DNA from: Clostridiales bacterium
GTDB taxonomy: Bacteria > Bacillota > Clostridia > Oscillospirales > Acutalibacteraceae
Direction: 5' to 3'
Length of the DNA stretch: 64,000 nt
NCBI GenBank assembly: GCA_036831405.1
Contig: DAISMS010000002.1
Location: 26,202 to 90,201, forward strand
Shown here: positions 5,239-63,652 of the stretch, one piece after another
How positions within the stretch are numbered: the stretch's first letter is position 1
Layout: each line of letters starts with the position of its first letter
Program-made: the position numbers and the translations under genes
Notes under the pieces: generated by a model
The model's database searches: none
What the model saw: only the letters and a program-made list of their open reading frames with translations
What the model was told of the DNA's origin: nothing

Positions 5239-5351
5239 CGGTTGGATTCAGCATGTAAATGAAGTTGTTTCGAGCAATAGAGGATCTGTCGGTCAAGGGG
5301 CAGCCGACAAATCCGCGGTGGATCATCCCAGAAAACGCCCCTTTTCAAATC

Positions 5352-5403
5352 GGTTTTATATCCTTTCCGGGTATAAAACCCGGAAAGGATATGAATCTGA
5401 ATT
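5352..5403 (+). promoter_or_regulatory. conserved hairpin leader element, copy 1
   Basis: GGTTTTATATCCTTTCCGGGTATAAAACCCGGAAAGGATATGAATCTGAATT lies directly before the ATG at 5404. It has a perfect 14-bp stem, ATATCCTTTCCGGG/CCCGGAAAGGATAT. Near-identical elements occur at 36262 and 38829. Confidence 0.45.
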
Positions 5404-6810
5404 ATGATTCAATTTGGAACAGGCGGCTGGCGCGCCATTATAGGAGACGGCTTTACAAAGGCAAATGTTCAGCTGCTTACCGCTGCCCTTGCGCGAAAAA
5501 TGAAGGATGCCGATCTTTCCGGCTTCGTCATCGGATATGATCGCCGATTTCTGTCCAAACAGTCTGCATATTGGGCGGCTGAAGTTATGGCTGGGGAAGG
5601 TGTCCTGTGCAAGGTTATCAACTACGATGCTCCGACACCGTTGGTTATGTTCTCTGTGAAGTATTTTGATTTGAGCTTTGGTATGATTATAACTGCCAGC
5701 CACAATCCTGCCATCTATAACGGCATCAAGGTATTTACCAAGGGCGGCAGGGATGCGGATGAAACGGTTACTGCTGAAATCGAGAAGTACATTTGCGGGA
5801 TTGATCCGGAGACCATCCGCACAATTCCGTATGAGGACGCACGCTCAAGCGGCTTGATAGAGGAGATTAATCCACAGAACGCGTATCTAGATTCGATTAT
5901 CCGCGGCATTAATATCGATGCCATTCGGAGCAGAAATCTGAAGATTGTATTGGACCCCATGTACGGTGTATCCAAAACCTCATTACAGACCATCCTACTG
6001 ACCGCTCGCTGTGATGTAAATGTGATCCATGAGCGGCATGATACCCTGTTCGGCGGACGCTTGCCTGCTCCCAATGTCGAGACGCTGAATGCCCTCAAAA
6101 ACTATGTCATGGAAAGTCATGCCGACATCGGGATTGCAACCGACGGAGATGCAGACCGTCTGGGAATCATCAATGACGAGGGAGAATTTGTTCATCCCAA
6201 TCAAATTCTTGTTATTCTTTACTATTATCTTTTGAAATATAAGGGCTGGCATGGCCCTGCCGTACGCAACATCGCAACCACCCACCTGCTTGACAAGGTT
6301 GCGGATGCATTCGGCGAAACCTGTTATGAAGTACCGGTTGGCTTCAAGCATATATCGGGAAAGATGATAGAAACCAATGCGGTGATCGGCGGAGAGTCCT
6401 CGGGCGGGTTGACGGTTCGCGGACATATTCAGGGCAAGGATGGAATTTATGCTGCTTCCCTTCTCGTCGAGATGCTGGCGGTTACAGGCAACAATCTTTC
6501 TCAAATTTATGACGATATAACCAATGAATTCGGACATCTTGTTATGGCCGAGCGGGATTATCGCTTTACCGAACAGAGAAAAGCAGAAATCAAGCAAATG
6601 CTCATGGAAGAAAAGAAGCTTCCCGAATTTCCCTGTGAGATCGAAAAGGTATCCTATCTGGATGGCTGCAAGGTGTATTTCAAAAACGGCGGCTGGATTA
6701 TTGCCCGCTTTTCCGGTACCGAACCGCTGATTCGTATCTTCTGTGAGATGCAGGAGAAAGCCCAGGCGGATCAGATCTGCGACATCATGAAGGATTTTCT
6801 TGGTCTGTAG
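5404..6810 (+). CDS. alpha-D-phosphohexomutase (phosphoglucomutase / phosphomannomutase / GlcNAc-phosphate mutase family)
   Basis: All four family loops are present: TASHNPAIYNGIK (active Ser), GIATDGDADR (Mg), GGESSGG (sugar) and RFSGTEPLIR (phosphate). Confidence 0.9.
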   Translation: MIQFGTGGWRAIIGDGFTKANVQLLTAALARKMKDADLSGFVIGYDRRFLSKQSAYWAAEVMAGEGVLCKVINYDAPTPLVMFSVKYFDLSFGMIITASHNPAIYNGIKVFTKGGRDADETVTAEIEKYICGIDPETIRTIPYEDARSSGLIEEINPQNAYLDSIIRGINIDAIRSRNLKIVLDPMYGVSKTSLQTILLTARCDVNVIHERHDTLFGGRLPAPNVETLNALKNYVMESHADIGIATDGDADRLGIINDEGEFVHPNQILVILYYYLLKYKGWHGPAVRNIATTHLLDKVADAFGETCYEVPVGFKHISGKMIETNAVIGGESSGGLTVRGHIQGKDGIYAASLLVEMLAVTGNNLSQIYDDITNEFGHLVMAERDYRFTEQRKAEIKQMLMEEKKLPEFPCEIEKVSYLDGCKVYFKNGGWIIARFSGTEPLIRIFCEMQEKAQADQICDIMKDFLGL

Positions 6811-36098: not shown

Positions 36099-36261
36099 GC
36101 GCTTACCCCCTTTCATGGGCTCATCATATATTATGAAATTGAATATAATGTGGTTACAGAATCCGCACCCACATAACATTGAATAAAAAACAACATGATT
36201 GCATAGGATATCGGCAGAAAGTACTTGTTTGACTAAATATTCAACCCCTATTTTTAAATGT

Positions 36262-36313
36262 GGTTTTATGTCTATTCGGGGGCATAAAACCCGGAAAGGA
36301 TATGGAGTTTAAA
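36262..36313 (+). promoter_or_regulatory. conserved hairpin leader element, copy 2
   Basis: GGTTTTATGTCTATTCGGGGGCATAAAACCCGGAAAGGATATGGAGTTTAAA lies directly before the ATG at 36314. Confidence 0.45.
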
Positions 36314-36517
36314 ATGAAAAAATCAGGTTTTGGATTTGGCGGTCATTCGAAAGGCAGGAGGTATCTGCCGGATAACGATTGGGAAGTAGCTGAAGAGATA
36401 TCCCCCGACCCGTTTTCAGAAGAGGAACATTCACAAATCCATGCGCGAAGGTTTGTACAGCCAAAATATAACAACAAGAAAATCAAAGAAAAAACGAACA
36501 ATCCGGAGCATACGTGA
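36314..36517 (+). CDS. small hypothetical protein (67 aa)
   Basis: ATG 36314 with GGAG 7 nt upstream; MKKSGFGFGGHSKGRRYLPDNDWEV... No recognised motif. Sits immediately upstream of the ctsR promoter. Confidence 0.5.
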   Translation: MKKSGFGFGGHSKGRRYLPDNDWEVAEEISPDPFSEEEHSQIHARRFVQPKYNNKKIKEKTNNPEHT

Positions 36518-36562: not shown

Positions 36563-36637
36563 ACTGACCTTTTCTGACTTTGACTATCTCTGATCATTAG
36601 GTGTATAATATGGTCAAGAAAGTCAGGGAAGGTCAGA
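36563..36637 (+). promoter_or_regulatory. ctsR promoter flanked by two CtsR operators
   Basis: TTGACT (36580), then 18 nt, then TATAAT (36604). The minus strand at 36563-36579 reads AGTCAGA-AAA-GGTCAGT. The plus strand at 36621-36637 reads AGTCAGG-GAA-GGTCAGA, with an extra heptad GGTCAAG at 36612. Both fit the RGTCAAA-NAN-RGTCAAA consensus. Confidence 0.75.
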
Positions 36638-38759: not shown

Positions 38760-38828
38760 AAACCTAAGATATTTTATCGATAAAAGATTGTTGGTCACAA
38801 GGGCGACTGATATTGCCCTCATAAAAAA

Positions 38829-38878
38829 GGTTTTATGTCCTTTGGGGGACATGAAATCCGGAAAGGACATGGATTATT
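38829..38878 (+). promoter_or_regulatory. conserved hairpin leader element, copy 3 (mcsB-clpC spacer)
   Basis: GGTTTTATGTCCTTTGGGGGACATGAAATCCGGAAAGGACATGGATTATT lies directly before the clpC ATG at 38879. Confidence 0.45.
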
Positions 38879-41347
38879 ATGTATCGTTTTAAAGGATTTA
38901 CCGAAAAAGCAAATACAGCTCTAAATCTTGCGATTCAAGCAGCCCAGGAACTTGGCCATACTTATATCGGAACCGAGCATCTTGTACTGGGGCTCCTCCG
39001 TGAGGGAACCGGTGTTGCGGCTTCGGTTATGGGCACAAGAGGGGTAACAGCCGCCCAGTATCAAGAGGCAATTTCCCATGCTGAATCGTCGGGTGAGCCC
39101 AACAGACTGTCTCCCGAGGATTTTACACCCCGCGCAAAAAAAGCCATGGAGATGGCTATGAGTGAAGCCGCTGCTATGCAGCACGGATATGTAGGAACAG
39201 AGCATATTTTGATGGCAATCCTGCGTGATGAAAGCAGTGTTGCGGTTCGTCTGCTTGCTGCGCTCGGCGCAAGAACCGATGATCTGTTCGGAGATATCTC
39301 ACAGGCGATTGGGATGAGTACCCCTCAGACTGCATCCGAAGGAATTCGCGGAGGAAGATCCAATGTGGCAAGATCAGGCGGCAAAACCCCGACGCTTGAC
39401 CAGTTCGGACGCGATTTAACGCAGTATGCCCGTGAAGGCAAGCTTGATCCGGTTATTGGGCGCGCCAACGAGATAGAACGCGTGATTCAGATTTTATCAC
39501 GCCGTACAAAAAACAATCCCTGCCTGATTGGCGAACCGGGTGTCGGTAAAACCGCGATTGCAGAAGGTCTTGCACAGAAGATCGCTTCGGACGAAGTGCC
39601 CGAGCTGCTGCATGGCAAGCGGGTTGTGACACTTGACTTGACCGGGATGGTAGCAGGTACAAAATACCGTGGCGATTTTGAAGAGCGGATTAAGAATGCA
39701 ATCGATGAGGTAATCAAAGCCAAAGACGTCGTTTTGTTTATTGATGAGATTCATACGCTAATCGGAGCGGGTGCCGCCGAAGGCGCAGTCGACGCTGCCA
39801 ATATACTAAAGCCATCTCTGGCGAGGGGCGAGCTGCAGATCATTGGTGCAACCACCCTTGATGAATATCGGAAGCATATTGAAAAGGATGCTGCACTGGA
39901 ACGGCGCTTCCAGCCGGTTACGGTAGGAGAACCCACTTCGGAAGAGGCGGTGCAGATTCTTCGCGGACTACGCGATAAATATGAAGCGCATCATAAGGTT
40001 AAAATTATCGACCAGGCGATTGAAGCGGCTGTCCGGTTGTCGGTACGTTATATTTCCGACCGCTATCTGCCCGACAAGGCGATTGACCTTGTGGATGAGG
40101 CGGCTTCCAGAGTACGCCTGCGCGCTTTTACACCGCCCCCTGATTTAAAGAGGCTTGAAGACGAGGTCAAGCGGTTGGATGAGGAAAAGAAATCAGCCGT
40201 TAACGAGCAGGATTTTGAACGTGCTGCCCGTCTGCGCGATCAGCAGAAGATTGTCGAGGAAAATCTAAAATCCATGAAAAATGAATGGCAGGAAAAGAAT
40301 TCGGGTATCACCGGTCAGGTGAACGAGCATGAAATTGCCGAGATTGTATCAAGCTGGACGGGCGTGCCTGTTGTACAGCTTACCGAAGAGGAAGGGCAAC
40401 GACTGCTTCGCATGGAGAATATTCTCCATGAACGGATTGTAGGTCAGAATGAAGCGGTAACCGCCGTTTCAAAAGCGATACGGCGCGGAAGAGTGGGGCT
40501 TAAGGATCCAAAGCGTCCCACCGGTTCATTCATTTTCCTCGGCCCGACGGGTGTTGGCAAAACTGAGTTATGTAAGGCGCTGGCAGAGGCGATGTTTGGA
40601 GACGAGGACGCCATGATTCGACTGGATATGTCTGAATATATGGAAAAGCATTCGGTATCCCGCCTTGTAGGCTCACCTCCCGGATATGTCGGCTATGATG
40701 AGGGAGGACAGCTCACCGAGAAAATCCGACGCAAGCCTTACTCCGTTTTATTGTTTGATGAAATTGAAAAAGCTCACCCCGATGTGTTCAATATGCTGCT
40801 CCAGATTCTTGAGGACGGTATACTGACCGATGCACAGGGAAGAAGAGTCGATTTTAAAAACTCCATCATCATCATGACGTCAAATGTCGGCGCAAGACTG
40901 ATCACCGAAAAGCACAGTCTCGGCTTCGGAGATGCGGGGCGTGGGGAGAGCGATGAAGCCGATCAGAAGAGGATACGTGACAATGTTATGGGCGAGCTGA
41001 AACGTGCCTTTCGTCCCGAGTTCCTCAACCGGGTGGACGATATTATTGTTTTCAGCAAGCTTTCCCAGAAGGATATACAGGAGATTGCCCGCCGTATGCT
41101 CAGCCAGCTTGACAAGCGATTGGCCGATATGGACATACGCGTTTCGGTGACCGATGAAGCGGTTGAGCAAATTTCTAAAGAAGGATTTGATCCGGTTTAC
41201 GGAGCTCGTCCGCTCCGTCGCGCCATTCAGTCCAAGATTGAGGATGCCATGGCGGAAAGTCTGTTGGAAGGCAAGTTTAAAGCCGGAAGCAATATTGTGG
41301 TCGATGCGGATGAGAACGGATTTGTATTCAAAAGCAGCGATGAATGA
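38879..41347 (+). CDS. clpC: ATP-dependent Clp protease ATP-binding subunit ClpC
   Basis: Clp N-repeats, two AAA+ modules ([16 protein letters not shown]) and a UVR linker; 822 aa. Confidence 0.95.
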
Positions 41348-44086: not shown

Positions 44087-44148
44087 GGATATGTTTCCCC
44101 TGATTGAATGGGGCGACGTGTTTTTCCCGGAAAGGTATGGTTTATGAT

Positions 44149-53423: not shown

Positions 53424-54320
53424 CTATCTGGTTTTGACCGACTCAGGGCTCAATTTCCTGGGGGCTTCCAGCATTTCACGTCCAACAGATACAGTACCGT
53501 CTTTTTTAATGAAATACGCCCATTTGGCAAGCATAATTTCGCCGCCTGCAATCTCAATACAGGTGATGCAGCGGGGATGCACACAGCTTCCGTCATTATA
53601 ATAGGCGGGTTCTTCTGCCGAAGGAAACACCGGTCGATGTGTATGCCCCGCAATCAACATGCAGTCTCCTTTTTTTACCCAATCTATCAGCTTACGTTCA
53701 ACCGAGATCCGCCTCTTATAGTTTTTGGCCGCACTGGTCGGGTCACGTACGCCGATTGCTTCGAGTGGTTTCCAGACGTATCTGACAAGAAAACGCGATA
53801 TCATCCAAAGATTGTAATTAAGAAAATCGGCCTGATGCCCGTGAATCAGCAGTATTTCTTGATTGCTGTTCTCGTGCTTTAGAACCAATGATTCAGGAAA
53901 TTGAATACCTGGACAACAAGCACACATGCAATTCTTACGGGAATCAAAAATTGTATCCAGGCATTTCGTTTTTTTTGGATTTCTTTTTTCCATATCATGA
54001 TTTCCGAAAAGCATATGAAGACGGTTTTTTGAATAAAATCGGGAAAATAAACGATATATATTGCGGTAGGTATCCACAATATCCTGCAGCCTTTTGTTTT
54101 CCCAAAGTTCATCCCCGTCTCCAAGCTCAATATACGTGAAACCGCTATCATAATAATGGTTTAGTGCGTGGTAATAAAGTCCCTGGTTTTTTGCAAAATT
54201 ATCCGCCCAGCTTCCTTCTCCTCTGTGACAGTCGCTGAATATGACGATTTTAGAGCGGTTGTTAAAAGGAATACGGGCGGCAGTTTCATACAGCTTATTC
54301 AGACGATTGTTGATTGTCAT
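53424..54320 (-). CDS. calcineurin-like metallophosphoesterase (paralog)
   Basis: IFSDCHRGEG, ELGDGDELW, GNHD, IHGHQADF and GHTHRP. Its start overlaps the upstream gene by 26 nt. Confidence 0.75.
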   Translation of the reverse strand: MTINNRLNKLYETAARIPFNNRSKIVIFSDCHRGEGSWADNFAKNQGLYYHALNHYYDSGFTYIELGDGDELWENKRLQDIVDTYRNIYRLFSRFYSKNRLHMLFGNHDMEKRNPKKTKCLDTIFDSRKNCMCACCPGIQFPESLVLKHENSNQEILLIHGHQADFLNYNLWMISRFLVRYVWKPLEAIGVRDPTSAAKNYKRRISVERKLIDWVKKGDCMLIAGHTHRPVFPSAEEPAYYNDGSCVHPRCITCIEIAGGEIMLAKWAYFIKKDGTVSVGREMLEAPRKLSPESVKTR

Positions 54321-61235: not shown

Positions 61236-61261
61236 AGTGAATAATATCATAAAAACATTGA

Positions 61262-61510
61262 CGGGAAGAGTAGACTCGACAGGACGTTTCAGAGAGCCGG
61301 GGAAGGTGCAAGCCCGGTACCGATAGTCGGGAGGAAGAACATCCCTGAGTTTCCATCCGAAAGCCTTTTCAGGTCAGTAGGCGTGGACGTCGGGCGGCAC
61401 GTTACAGCCGTAAACCATAGGTGATGAGTGGATCGTTAAACGGTCTATTTGGGTGGTACCGCGGAAGCATCGTCTTTCGTCCCAGTTTCAGGGATGAAGG
61501 GCGTTTTTTA
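61262..61510 (+). ncRNA. T-box riboswitch leader, specifier read as AAC (Asn)
   Basis: Stem I: GGGA-AGAGUAG, AG bulge CAGAGAG, distal loop GGUGCAA. The 3' side of the specifier loop reads GGAAG-AAC-A directly before the closing UCCC and the UGA K-turn. T-box sequence TTTGGGTGGTACCGCG at 61448-61463. Terminator at 61471-61509 with G-U pairs plus TTTTTT. Confidence 0.85.
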
Positions 61511-61570
61511 TTGGTTGAAAATTGGCAAGAGCAGAGCCCTTGCCCTACAAGATGAAAGGACATGGATTAA

Positions 61571-63652
61571 ATGAAACGAACCGACTATTGCGGCGCATTG
61601 CGTGAAAAGGATGTAGGCCGCACCATTACGGCGATGGGCTGGGCACAGAATAAGCGTGATATGGGGGGCGTTATTTTTATTGACCTGCGGGATAGAGAGG
61701 GTACGCTGCAGGTGGTTTTTGATGCGCGCAATCTTTCAGCAGAGGATTTTACGGCGGCCGAGCTTCTTAAGGTGGAATCAACCATTGCCGTCACCGGACT
61801 GCTGCGCCCTCGTGACCAGGAAACCTATAATCCGAGACTGGCGACAGGCACAATCGAGCTTGCCGCTACAAAGCTGGAGGTACTCTCCGAGGCCGAAACC
61901 CTGCCGTTTCAGCTGGAGGATGCAGCCAATGTTCGGGAGGATCTGCGACTAAAATACCGCTTTATTGATCTCCGCCGCCCCAAGCTGCTGAATAATCTGC
62001 GGTTCAGAGCCGCTGTTGTCAAGACGGTCTGTGATTATCTCGACAACGATGGATTTATTCAGATAGAGACGCCCATGCTGACCAAAAGCCCGCCCGAGGG
62101 TGCGAGGGACTACCTTGTTCCCAGCCGGGTGCATCAGGGCAAGTTTTACGCCCTGCCCCAGTCACCACAGATATTTAAGCAGCTTTTGATGGTGGGGGGA
62201 ATCGATAAATATTATCAGGTTGCCCGCTGCTTTCGCGACGAGGATCTGCGCGCCGATCGCCAGCCTGAATTCACCCAGGTGGATATGGAGATGTCGTTTG
62301 TTGGTCAGGAGGAGATTCTTATCCGGCTTGAAAAGCTGTTCAAGCATATTTTCAGCCGGACGCTGGGATTTGAATTCACCCAAGCCTTTCCCCGACTGAC
62401 ATGGCGTGAGTGTATGGACAGATACGGCAGCGATAAGCCGGATCTTCGATTTGATCTTCCCATCATCGACCTGACCGAGCAGATGCGGGGCTGCGGATTC
62501 TCAGTGTTCCGCAATGCAGTAGACAAAGGCGGTTATGTCCGCGCCATCAATGTCAAGGGCAGCGGTGATTTTACCCGCGGCACCATTGAGGATCTCACCG
62601 CCAAGGCACAGGGCTACGGCGCAAAGGGCATGGCATGGATTGCCATGAAGGAGGACGGAACACCCTATTCCATCCTGACCAAGTATTTTACTGAAAATGA
62701 ATTCGACAGCCTGCTTGGGGCAGTGGACGCAAAAGCGGGGGATTTCATTCTGTTCTGCGCCGACAAATATTCCACCGTCTGCCGCACCCTCGGCGGACTG
62801 CGGCTTGACCTTGCCGATATGATTGGGCTCCGCCGCAAGGATGATTATAAATTCCTGATTGTCACCGATTTCCCGGAATTTGAATATTCCGAGGAGGAGG
62901 GGCGCTATCTCGCAACACACCATCCGTTTACCATGCCCTACCCCGAGGACATCCCCTATCTCCTATCCGATCCGGGACGGGTGCGCGCCCAGGCCTATGA
63001 CGTGGTTCTCAACGGTGTCGAGCTGGGCAGCGGTAGCATCCGTATCCATCGCCGGGATGTACAGCAAACCATGTTTGAGGCACTGGGATTTGACGACGAG
63101 CAAATTGAAGAGCGGTTTGGATTTATGGTAAACGCTTTCCGTTACGGAACGCCTCCCCATGGGGGATTTGCATTCGGTCTTGACCGTCTTGTCATGCTGA
63201 TGTTGGGAGAGGATTCGCTTCGTGAGGTTATCGCATTCCCCAAGGTCAAGGACGCCAGCTGCCTGATGACCGATGCACCCAATGTCGTGGATCAGGAACA
63301 GCTGGATGTGCTGGGATTGACAGCCGGTCTGCTTGAGCAAGAACCGGCGGCTGCCACTCAAAACAAGCAGGTGGAAAAAATAAATGTGGACAACGTCGCC
63401 GAGCTCACCAAGCTCCAAATGAGCCAGAAGGAAAAAAAGGAGCTTGAAGCCGAATTGGAGACAATGATTGACTTTGTAAGTCAGCTTAAGGAGCTGGATA
63501 CCACCGGCGTGCCGGTTACCGATCATGCAGTACCGCTGAAAAATGTGCTTCGTGAGGATGTCCCCCATCAGCTTTATGACAGAGATGAGCTGCTTGCAAG
63601 CGCACCCCAAAAACAGGACGGATATATATTCGTACCGCAGGTCGTGGAATAG
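61571..63652 (+). CDS. aspS: aspartyl-tRNA synthetase fused in frame to a C-terminal GatC domain
   Basis: Class IIb AspRS motifs are present (FYALPQSPQ, FRDEDLRADRQPEF, GSIRIH, GGFAFGLDR). The normal AspRS end (AFPKVKDASCLMTDAP) is followed by a linker and a roughly 90-aa GatC-like module (nt 63380-63649). Confidence 0.9.
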   Translation: MKRTDYCGALREKDVGRTITAMGWAQNKRDMGGVIFIDLRDREGTLQVVFDARNLSAEDFTAAELLKVESTIAVTGLLRPRDQETYNPRLATGTIELAATKLEVLSEAETLPFQLEDAANVREDLRLKYRFIDLRRPKLLNNLRFRAAVVKTVCDYLDNDGFIQIETPMLTKSPPEGARDYLVPSRVHQGKFYALPQSPQIFKQLLMVGGIDKYYQVARCFRDEDLRADRQPEFTQVDMEMSFVGQEEILIRLEKLFKHIFSRTLGFEFTQAFPRLTWRECMDRYGSDKPDLRFDLPIIDLTEQMRGCGFSVFRNAVDKGGYVRAINVKGSGDFTRGTIEDLTAKAQGYGAKGMAWIAMKEDGTPYSILTKYFTENEFDSLLGAVDAKAGDFILFCADKYSTVCRTLGGLRLDLADMIGLRRKDDYKFLIVTDFPEFEYSEEEGRYLATHHPFTMPYPEDIPYLLSDPGRVRAQAYDVVLNGVELGSGSIRIHRRDVQQTMFEALGFDDEQIEERFGFMVNAFRYGTPPHGGFAFGLDRLVMLMLGEDSLREVIAFPKVKDASCLMTDAPNVVDQEQLDVLGLTAGLLEQEPAAATQNKQVEKINVDNVAELTKLQMSQKEKKELEAELETMIDFVSQLKELDTTGVPVTDHAVPLKNVLREDVPHQLYDRDELLASAPQKQDGYIFVPQVVE

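What the first reader, a model, noticed from the sequence alone, without database searches (positions are those of the whole stretch)
36262..36313. A conserved ~50-nt hairpin leader sits directly 5' of at least three unrelated start codons
Three near-identical elements all end exactly at an ATG on the + strand:
- 5352-5403, before the phosphohexomutase gene
- 36262-36313, before a 67-aa ORF upstream of ctsR
- 38829-38878, before clpC

Consensus: GGTTTTATrTCyttTnnGGGnnAYAwAAAyCCGGAAAGGAyATGrAnnT...ATG.

The arms (ATATCCTTTCCGGG / CCCGGAAAGGATAT in copy 1) form a 14-bp stem. The third stem position varies as A-U, G-U and G-C across the copies, and other differences are U-G wobbles. That pattern looks like RNA-level rather than DNA-level conservation. 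The 3' arm is a GGA-rich run (ccGGAaaGGAyatGGA).

A weaker fourth copy (…TTTTTCCCGGAAAGGTATGGTTTATGAT-ATG) precedes mini-RNase III at 44110-44148.

I cannot match it to any riboswitch or leader class I know. Possible roles are a 5' stabiliser or processing hairpin, a protein-binding (CsrA-like GGA) site, a thermosensor, or a small mobile repeat that inserts next to SD sequences.
Basis: seen in the sequence. Interest (0 to 1): 0.62.

Follow-up and report, generated by a model that had tools for sequence, protein, structure and literature searches.

The report
Repeated hairpin-plus-ribosome-site leader cassette
Three unrelated genes in this uncultured gut/fermenter bacterium (family Oscillospiraceae) carry the same inserted ~50-130-base leader, an RNA hairpin fused to a standard ribosome-binding site placed right before the start codon; it is a new small repeat family of a kind seen before in other bacteria, and its effect on expression is untested.

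Summary
The three copies are real: 5352-5403, 36262-36313 and 38829-38878, all on the + strand. A covariance model scores them 57-62 bits; the next best window hit is 13.6. The "fourth copy" at 44110 is only the genome's ordinary Shine-Dalgarno (SD) site, GAAAGGA, which about 20 of 51 window genes use.

The family-specific part is a hairpin, GGUUUUAUGUCC...GGACAUAAAACC, ending 1-2 nt before that SD. It is an alternative fold that uses the same 5' arm.

There is no Rfam hit. At least 12 further copies occur in related Clostridia MAGs and fermenter or sludge metagenomes. Every one is sense-oriented and lies just 5' of a start codon, before unrelated genes.

Sister genomes have empty sites:
- Upstream of the PGM-family (phosphoglucomutase/phosphomannomutase) gene, a 133-nt insertion (5270-5402) ends 1 nt before the ATG. 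The old SD has decayed upstream of it.
- The clpC spacer is 119 nt here, against 24-72 nt in relatives.

So this is an interspersed, copy-and-paste leader/RBS cassette. The closest functional parallels are Neisseria REP2, Borrelia IR and mycobacterial MIRU repeats. Predicted SD occlusion is only modestly above background. The function (translation damping or gating, or mRNA stabilisation) is inferred, not shown. No RNA data exist.

The parts
5352..5403 (+). Copy 1 core. Hairpin A is 5352-5380 (GGUUUUAUAUCC-UUUCC-GGGUAUAAAACC), the SD GGAAAGGA is 5382-5389, and a 14-nt spacer runs to the ATG at 5404 (PGM/PMM-family gene). Alternative 18-bp helix: 5355-5372 paired with 5378-5395, which buries the SD.
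   Evidence: (62.0 bits).
5270..5402 (+). Full insertion carrying copy 1 (133 nt). It is absent from the sister genome L139, where the GH94-PGM spacer is 34 nt.
   Evidence: blastn breakpoints are window 5269|5403 against L139 2725|2729, with flanking genes about 84% identical at nucleotide level. Sequences.
5254..5266 (+). Decayed ancestral SD region. TGTAAATGAAGTT here corresponds to TGAAAGGAAGTT in L139. It is now stranded upstream of the insertion.
   Evidence: direct comparison of the two spacers.
36262..36313 (+). Copy 2 core. Hairpin A is 36262-36291, the SD GGAAAGGA is 36293-36300, and a 13-nt spacer runs to the ATG at 36314 (conserved 67-aa ORF upstream of ctsR).
   Evidence: (62.1 bits).
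38829..38878 (+). Copy 3 core, in the mcsB-clpC spacer. Hairpin A is 38829-38858 (13 bp, the MFE structure), the SD GGAAAGGA is 38860-38867, and an 11-nt spacer runs to the ATG at 38879 (clpC).
   Evidence: (56.8 bits).
38760..38828 (+). 5' module of the long form, shared collinearly with copy 1 (5270-5351). It holds a GUYGG..CCGAC hairpin, AGGGC..GCCCU and an A/U-rich linker. It is absent from the 24-72-nt mcsB-clpC spacers of relatives.
   Evidence: Semi-global alignment score 28 against 11.1 +/- 3.7 in 1000 shuffles; z 4.3; relatives.
44110..44148 (+). NOT a copy. This is the ordinary SD (GGAAAGG) and spacer of the mini-RNase III gene.
   Evidence: no hairpin, z +1.8; 10.8 bits, E 0.46; generic SD list.

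Best explanation
This is a lineage-restricted interspersed repeat that acts as a portable leader/RBS cassette.

Anatomy:
- The core, about 50 nt, is an RNA hairpin of 9-13 bp (GGUUUUAUGUCC - variable loop - GGACAUAAAACC). It is fused 1-2 nt upstream of the organism's canonical SD (GGAAAGGA) and followed by an 11-16-nt spacer.
- A long form of about 100-133 nt adds a 5' module.

Origin (shown): DNA copies have been pasted directly in front of start codons of unrelated genes, mostly between co-directional genes. There they replace the native ribosome-binding site.

Function (inferred):
- In the mRNA, the cassette supplies the SD that the downstream gene now uses.
- The 5' arm and loop of the hairpin are anti-SD-like (UCCUUUCC). 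The same arm can therefore pair with its 3' partner, leaving the SD free, or with the SD, hiding it. The likely effect is to damp or gate translation initiation.
- A secondary or alternative effect is a structured 5' block that stabilises the downstream mRNA segment.
For: Repeat family:
- Three copies score 57-62 bits, with a gap down to 13.6 bits or less for everything else in 64 kb. There are no further copies in about 17 kb of flanking contig.
- Eight further copies occur in related genomes or metagenome contigs. Three are in one MAG, JAEZCT01; the others are L012, L081, L031, L121 and L125.
- About four more occur in biogas and sludge contigs.

Placement:
- Every copy is on the sense strand, with GGA 11-16 nt before a start codon.
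- Downstream genes are unrelated: PGM, clpC, an ABC ATPase, an S41 protease, transketolase-C, Rrf2, deoC, DUF436, GH123 and a Met-gamma-lyase family gene.
- In 8 of 9 copies the upstream gene is co-directional.

Insertion:
- L139 has a 34-nt spacer where the window has 165 nt. The breakpoints are 5269|5403, and a decayed old SD survives upstream.
- clpC spacers are 24-72 nt in L131, L132 and L134, against 119 nt here. The model finds no copy in four orthologous loci.

RNA hairpin:
- The RNAalifold consensus is hairpin A, with 12 pairs, 3 of them showing compensatory changes.
- 97% of cells are paired, against 22-54% when the partner columns are slid. All 10 one-sided changes are G.U on the + strand.

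SD supply and occlusion:
- GAAAGGA is the generic SD of the genome.
- The SD-hiding fold is the MFE in 6 of 11 copies.
- Median predicted SD accessibility is 0.33, against 0.52 for 49 other window genes (one-sided Mann-Whitney p 0.016).
Against: - There are no RNA data at all, so transcription start, processing and any translational effect are unshown.
- SD occlusion is inconsistent: 0.00 in copy 1 but 0.49, at background level, in copy 3. The p value is modest.
- No transposase, target-site duplication or terminal inverted repeats were found, so the copying mechanism is unknown.
- At the copy-2 site, the relative L132 has a loosely similar leader (about 55-60% identity). That copy may be old or native rather than inserted.
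- Genome-wide copy number could not be measured.
- Cores are only 57-84% identical, and no more alike within a genome than between genomes. That fits long-term constraint or exchange better than a recent burst.
Confidence: 0.55

Rival explanations
1. Translational operator regulon. Hairpin A is the binding site of a trans-acting RNA-binding protein or sRNA. Sitting next to the SD, the bound factor would co-regulate a scattered set of genes.
For: - The stem sequence GGUUUUAU/AUAAAACC is conserved across different genera at non-orthologous sites, where neutral intergenic DNA is unalignable.
- The hairpin always abuts the SD, as classical translational operators do (established knowledge, for example the thrS operator).
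Against: - The loop, usually the recognition surface, varies in sequence and length (5-13 nt).
- Sites are not conserved at orthologous genes in relatives with 83-93% identical proteins.
- The gene set has no functional theme.
- No candidate factor was identified.
Confidence: 0.15
2. Intercistronic processing and 5'-stabiliser module. An endonuclease cuts in the A/U-rich linker just 5' of hairpin A. The hairpin then caps the downstream mRNA against 5'-3' decay and uncouples its level from the upstream cistron.
For: - 8 of 9 copies lie between co-directional genes.
- A U/A-rich stretch (UUUUCAAAUC, UAUUUUUAAAUGU, CAUAAAAAA) precedes the hairpin in most copies.
- The architecture resembles known Firmicute stabilisers and the cggR-gapA processing site (established knowledge).
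Against: - No 5'-end or RNA-seq data exist.
- In copy 1 the stable fold is the SD-burying helix, not a free hairpin plus open SD.
- The idea does not explain the anti-SD content of the arm and loop.
Confidence: 0.15
3. Selfish or neutral repeat with no regulatory role. It persists only because it carries a working SD and so does not kill the gene it lands in front of.
For: - Presence/absence differs between sister genomes.
- The native SD decayed after insertion.
- SD occlusion is heterogeneous across copies.
Against: - Hairpin pairing is maintained, with wobble and compensatory changes, in copies as divergent as 57-84%.
- Copies from different genera remain recognisable although flanking intergenic DNA is saturated.
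Confidence: 0.12
4. Ligand-sensing riboswitch, RNA thermometer, or a palindromic DNA operator for a transcription factor.
For: - The element has two mutually exclusive folds that involve the SD.
- It contains an inverted repeat.
Against: - No Rfam family matches, even at E up to 10.
- About 30 nt with a variable loop leaves no room for a conserved pocket, and the downstream genes are unrelated.
- SD accessibility is nearly flat from 25 to 50 C.
- Half-site spacing varies from 11 to 15 nt, the changes are G.U-type and strand-specific, and orientation relative to the SD is fixed. These argue against a dimeric DNA operator.
Confidence: 0.03

Closest known systems
Neisseria REP2 (CREN) repeats and the similar Borrelia plasmid IR sequences
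   Same: - They are interspersed intergenic repeats placed immediately upstream of unrelated ORFs.
- They bring 5'-UTR sequence and a ribosome-binding site.
- They have no terminal inverted repeats but have internal inverted repeats predicted to form RNA stem-loops.
- Copy number is in the tens, and unit size is 120-150 bp, comparable with the 100-133-nt long form here (PMC3184786).
   Different: - There is no evident sequence relationship, and the phylum differs (Bacillota versus Proteobacteria or Spirochaetes).
- REP2 also carries a promoter and its own ATG. No convincing promoter was found here, and the ATG belongs to the gene.
- Here the hairpin abuts the SD and its arm is anti-SD-like.
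- REP2 marks a co-regulated gene set; nothing of that sort is known here.
Mycobacterial interspersed repetitive units (MIRU)
   Same: - They are 40-100-bp repeats in intercistronic spacers of operons, in the same orientation as the flanking genes.
- They are co-transcribed with the flanking genes.
- Filled and empty sites are seen between related species (PMC3184786).
   Different: - MIRUs contain small ORFs that overlap the flanking stop and start codons, occur as tandem arrays, and show short direct repeats at filled sites.
- None of these is seen here.
REP/REPIN and MITE elements (including Correia, RUP, BOX, ERIC)
   Same: - They are short, non-coding, hairpin-forming interspersed repeats.
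- When transcribed they can alter expression or mRNA stability of neighbouring genes.
   Different: - REPs are high-copy, occur in both orientations, typically lie 3' of genes, and are linked to RAYT transposases.
- MITEs have terminal inverted repeats and target-site duplications.
- Here orientation is strictly sense, the position is at -1 of start codons, the inverted repeat is internal, and no duplication is seen at the copy-1 junctions.
SD-sequestering leader hairpins (riboswitch expression platforms, RNA thermometers, RNase III-activated leaders such as E. coli adhE)
   Same: An anti-SD strand can pair with the SD. A competing upstream pairing frees it.
   Different: - There is no sensor domain.
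- No temperature response is predicted.
- The element is repeated at many unrelated genes and is inserted rather than vertically conserved.

Membership tests
Any Rfam family (riboswitch, leader or sRNA) | A covariance-model match at or above the gathering score. | tested here: not met
   Window scan at gathering threshold finds only a T-box and two tRNAs. E-value scans of two copies return only sub-threshold miRNA-like hairpin noise.
REP / REPIN | Extragenic palindromes in both orientations, typically 3' of genes or between convergent genes. | tested here: not met
   All 11 fully sequenced copies, and about 4 metagenome copies, are sense-oriented and lie directly 5' of a start codon.
REP / REPIN | High copy number (more than 100 per genome) and an associated RAYT transposase. 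| not testable with these tools
There are 3 copies in about 81 kb of contig. The genome scan was truncated.
MITE | Terminal inverted repeats at the ends of the unit. | tested here: not met
   The inverted repeat (hairpin A) is internal to the 133-nt insertion 5270-5402. The ends of the insertion are not complementary.
MITE | Target-site duplication flanking filled sites. | tested here: not met
   Comparing the filled site in the window with the empty site in L139 shows no direct repeat at the junctions GTT|TCGAG and GAATT|ATG. This rests on a single site.
REP2/CREN-like 5'-UTR/RBS repeats (a functional class, not a homology family) | A repeat immediately upstream of unrelated ORFs that carries the RBS. 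| tested here: met
   The SD GGAAAGGA lies inside the repeat, 11-16 nt before the start codon, in all copies. The native SD has decayed at copy 1.
REP2/CREN-like 5'-UTR/RBS repeats | Internal stem-loops at RNA level and no terminal inverted repeats. | tested here: met
   Hairpin A is supported by consensus folding and pair counts.
REP2/CREN-like 5'-UTR/RBS repeats | The repeat carries its own promoter. | tested here: inconclusive
   The sigma-70-type scan finds none at the three copies. Copy 2 has only a weak TTGACT-17/19-TTTAAAT. Other sigma types are not covered.
MIRU | Intercistronic position, co-oriented with the flanking genes. | tested here: met
   In 8 of 9 copies the upstream gene is co-directional, with gaps of 1-254 nt.
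MIRU | Tandem arrays, and small ORFs overlapping the flanking stop and start codons. | tested here: not met
   Each site holds a single copy. The internal ATG (GGAYATG) is in frame with the gene in only some copies and lies 1 nt after the SD.
RNA thermometer (fourU / ROSE type) | SD pairing that melts over the physiological temperature range. | tested here: not met
   Predicted P(unpaired SD) changes by about 0.15 or less between 25 and 50 C in 9 of 11 copies, the largest rises being 0.21-0.23 in L012 and L091. Copy 1 stays at 0.00, with -25.6 kcal/mol at 50 C. This is prediction only.
CsrA-type binding site | GGA motifs presented in hairpin loops or as a spaced pair specific to the targets. 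| tested here: not met
   The GGA run is the genome-wide SD consensus, found in about 20 of 51 genes. It lies outside the loop of hairpin A.

The most novel reading that the evidence does not exclude
The cassette may be a previously unrecognised kind of mobile element: a self-contained 'portable translation-initiation region' that is copied specifically to position -1 of start codons. There it would displace native ribosome-binding sites and put the captured genes under a shared bistable anti-SD/SD switch read by an unknown trans-factor or condition.
Probability: 0.12. Interest if true: 0.8.

Novelty: new variant of a known kind. Interest (0 to 1): 0.5.

Why it matters
If the reading holds, bacteria of the Oscillospiraceae, a major and mostly uncultured gut and fermenter group, rewire translation initiation by pasting a ready-made hairpin-plus-SD leader in front of genes as important as clpC. 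That would have three consequences:
- It would be a natural counterpart of the insulated RBS parts used in synthetic biology.
- It would be a source of between-species expression differences that gene-content comparisons miss.
- It would be an annotation hazard: the internal ATG and the open frame through the element invite wrong start calls. ClpC homologues in the database range from 809 to 856 aa, though whether that reflects start calls was not checked.

The insertion point, exactly at the start codon, also raises an unanswered question about the copying mechanism.

Tried and rejected
- Genome-collection scan. The pattern GGTTTTAT-N17-24-CCGGAAAGGA was too loose. It did not reach the window's own genome, so genome-wide copy number is unknown.
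- Metagenome scan with a tighter pattern. It gave 11 loci, only 5 of them real, and 2 of those duplicates.
- Viral contigs. Only chance hits.
- RNA-seq search. No runs hold the locus.
- Laying the MAG-level run (X3) on copies 1 and 2 to count paralogues. Only the bait locus itself was laid; even the other known copies were missed, so the method is too insensitive below about 85% identity. It did recover extra copies from biogas and sludge runs. The copy-2 bait found none.
- H-type pseudoknot (hairpin A loop pairing with the SD while the stem stays closed). Considered and rejected on sterics: stems of 9-12 bp with connecting loops of 0-1 nt. This is my own reasoning.
- Weak model hits at 53977-54055. 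They lie inside a minus-strand ORF and are noise.
- Promoter in the A/T-rich linker. No consistent -35/-10 pair.
- Flanks beyond the element. No similarity among copies, apart from the 5' module shared by copies 1 and 3.
- Literature searches for an SD-carrying repeat in Clostridia. Nothing specific turned up. The REP2, Borrelia IR and MIRU analogies come from PMC3184786.

Full report
**Observation**

Reading the four places confirms three near-identical + strand elements:
- 5352-5403, ending at the ATG of a PGM/PMM-family gene (Pfam).
- 36262-36313, ending at the ATG of a 67-aa ORF upstream of ctsR.
- 38829-38878, ending at the ATG of clpC (gene calls).

CCGGAAAGGAYATG occurs three times exactly. 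With up to 2 mismatches it gives 7 matches against 0.72 expected, and 0 of 100 shuffles reach 7. A covariance model (R1) run over the whole window with filters off scores the three at 62.1, 62.0 and 56.8 bits, and every other + strand site at 13.6 bits or less.

The proposed fourth copy at 44110 has no hairpin (z +1.8) and scores 10.8 bits, E 0.46. It is not a copy.

**What is specific and what is generic**

A survey of 51 window genes shows that GAAAGGA(Y), 8-14 nt before the start, is simply this organism's usual Shine-Dalgarno (SD) sequence. The gene at 61571 has GAAAGGACATGGATTA-ATG, almost the same as the tail of copy 3. So the 'GGA-rich 3' arm' and the fourth 'copy' are ordinary SDs.

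The family-specific part is the roughly 30 nt in front: GGUUUUAUGUCC - loop - GGACAUAAAACC, ending 1-2 nt before the SD.

**Structure**

The 5' arm (segment 1) is complementary to two downstream partners:
- Segment 2, giving hairpin A, which leaves the SD free.

It is interrupted in copy 2 and is not the MFE structure in copy 3.

Across 10-11 copies the evidence favours hairpin A:
- The RNAalifold consensus is hairpin A, with 12 pairs, 3 of them showing compensatory changes.
- For its 9 basal pairs, 97% of cells are paired, against 22-54% when the partner columns are slid.
- All 10 one-sided changes are G.U on the + strand, and pair 9 switches between G-C and A-U.
- The shuffle control is weak (30-56 of 500 shuffles reach the observed value). 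The search patterns had fixed much of the stem, so this supports a sense-strand RNA (or top-strand) hairpin but does not prove it.

Hairpin A alone is worth -4.5 to -17 kcal/mol. The SD-hiding fold is the MFE in 6 of 11 copies.

Median predicted SD accessibility is 0.33, against 0.52 for 49 other window genes (one-sided Mann-Whitney p 0.016). The spread is wide: 0.00 in copy 1 and 0.49 in copy 3. Accessibility barely changes between 25 and 50 C.

**Known families**

Rfam gives nothing at the gathering threshold. At E up to 10 it returns only hairpin noise.

**Distribution**

The window comes from an uncultured Oscillospiraceae/Ruminococcaceae MAG found in fermentation metagenomes.

- The one genome-collection scan was too loose and was truncated. 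It still yielded true relatives: three copies in one MAG (JAEZCT01: L052, L087, L091), one in JAAYKB01 (L012), and L081 and L031.
- The metagenome scan added L121 and L125.
- Laying biogas and sludge contigs on copies 1 and 3 revealed about four more loci.

Every copy is sense-oriented, with GGA 11-16 nt before a start codon. The downstream genes are unrelated: an ABC ATPase, a CtpB-like S41 protease, the transketolase C subunit, Rrf2, deoC, DUF436, GH123 and a Met-gamma-lyase family gene. In 8 of 9 cases the upstream gene is co-directional.

There are no further copies in about 17 kb flanking the window or in viral contigs. Core identities are 57-84%, and are no higher within a genome than between genomes.

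**Empty sites**

This is the most informative result.

- PGM site. In L139 (PGM 93% identical, flanking DNA about 84%), GH94 and PGM are 34 nt apart with a plain SD. In the window they are 165 nt apart.
  - The blastn breakpoints are 5269|5403, so a 133-nt block (5270-5402) sits 1 nt before the ATG.
  - L139's TGAAAGGAAGTT survives upstream of the block as decayed TGTAAATGAAGTT.
  - L140 has a 36-nt spacer.
- clpC site. Relatives with 83-89% identical ClpC have 24-72-nt mcsB-clpC spacers without the hairpin, against 119 nt here. Alignability resumes exactly at the start codon.
- Model scans. R1 finds no copy in about 140 kb of these orthologous loci.
- Copy-2 site. L132 has a loosely similar leader and 40 fewer nt, so copy 2 may be older or native.

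Copies 1 and 3 also share a collinear 5' module (score 28 against 11.1 +/- 3.7 in shuffles; z 4.3). This implies a long form of about 100-133 nt. A biogas contig shares GAAAACGCCC(C)TTTT..AATC with copy 1.

No target-site duplication or terminal inverted repeats are seen.

**Interpretation**

Shown:
- This is a real multi-copy family.
- Placement is strictly sense and proximal to start codons.
- Insertion relative to sister genomes, with replacement of the native SD, is shown at the PGM site; at clpC only the extra DNA is shown, and copy 2 may be native.
- A maintained sense-strand hairpin abuts the SD.

Inferred:
- The cassette supplies the working SD.
- Its anti-SD-like arm damps or gates initiation.
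- Alternatively or additionally, the hairpin stabilises or delimits the downstream mRNA.

The copying mechanism is unknown.

Rivals and how they stand:
- An RNA-binding-factor regulon, a processing or stabiliser module, and a neutral selfish repeat all remain open.
- A riboswitch, a thermometer, a CsrA site and a double-stranded DNA operator are disfavoured.

**Comparison with known elements**

The nearest known kinds are Neisseria REP2/CREN and Borrelia IR repeats. These are 120-150-bp repeats immediately upstream of unrelated ORFs, carrying an RBS and internal stem-loops and lacking terminal inverted repeats. Mycobacterial MIRUs are also close: intercistronic, co-oriented, with filled and empty sites (PMC3184786).

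This element resembles them in how it behaves but shows no evident homology to them. It lacks REP2's promoter and ATG and MIRU's tandem arrays and overlapping ORFs. It differs from REP/REPIN and MITE elements in orientation, position and end structure.

I therefore rate it a new variant of a known kind, of moderate interest. The main gaps are genome-wide counts and any RNA-level evidence.

Noticed in passing
window 36314-36517 (+): The 67-aa ORF upstream of ctsR has no Pfam match. A 60-72-aa ORF is called at the same position in four related genomes, and the first residues are similar in the two nearest relatives (MKKSGFG here, MKRSGFG in L132, MKNSYLG in L131). It looks like an uncharacterised small protein linked to the ctsR-mcsA-mcsB-clpC operon.
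   Followed up: partly
window 36566-36609 (+): A strong sigma-70-type promoter for ctsR (TTGACT-18-TATAAT, 11 of 12 matches) overlaps CtsR-box-like heptad repeats read on the opposite strand (CTGACC-TTT-TCTGACT). This is the expected autoregulatory operator. It shows that ctsR has its own promoter downstream of the small ORF.
   Followed up: partly
window 61249-63652 (+): A T-box leader (109 bits) precedes a 693-aa protein that combines aspartyl-tRNA synthetase domains with a GatC domain (PF02686). gatA and gatB follow. This is an apparent AspRS-GatC fusion at the head of the transamidation operon.
   Followed up: no
window 5254-5266 (+): This is a fossil of the original PGM ribosome-binding site. 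It is mutated away from GAAAGGA and stranded 138 nt from the start codon by the insertion.
   Followed up: yes
window 5270-5351 and 38760-38828 (+): Copies 1 and 3 share a collinear 5' module. It contains a small GUYGG...CCGAC hairpin and an AGGGGC...GCCCCU pairing followed by a U/A-rich run, which looks like a weak terminator. Its role is unknown, and copy 2 lacks most of it.
   Followed up: partly
window 36150-36160 and the corresponding sites in L131-L134: A GGTTACA motif is conserved about 110-160 nt upstream of the small ORF in the window and all four relatives, although the surrounding intergenic DNA is otherwise divergent. It may be a promoter or an operator element.
   Followed up: no
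window 38771-38790 (+): A perfect AT-rich palindrome (TATTTTATCGATAAAAGA) lies in the mcsB-clpC spacer, just 5' of the region shared with copy 1.
   Followed up: no
L131 1-7000: In this relative, the region upstream of the ctsR operon is packed with fragmented transposase genes (DDE_Tnp_1, ISL3, DUF772). That points to high mobile-element activity in this lineage.
   Followed up: no
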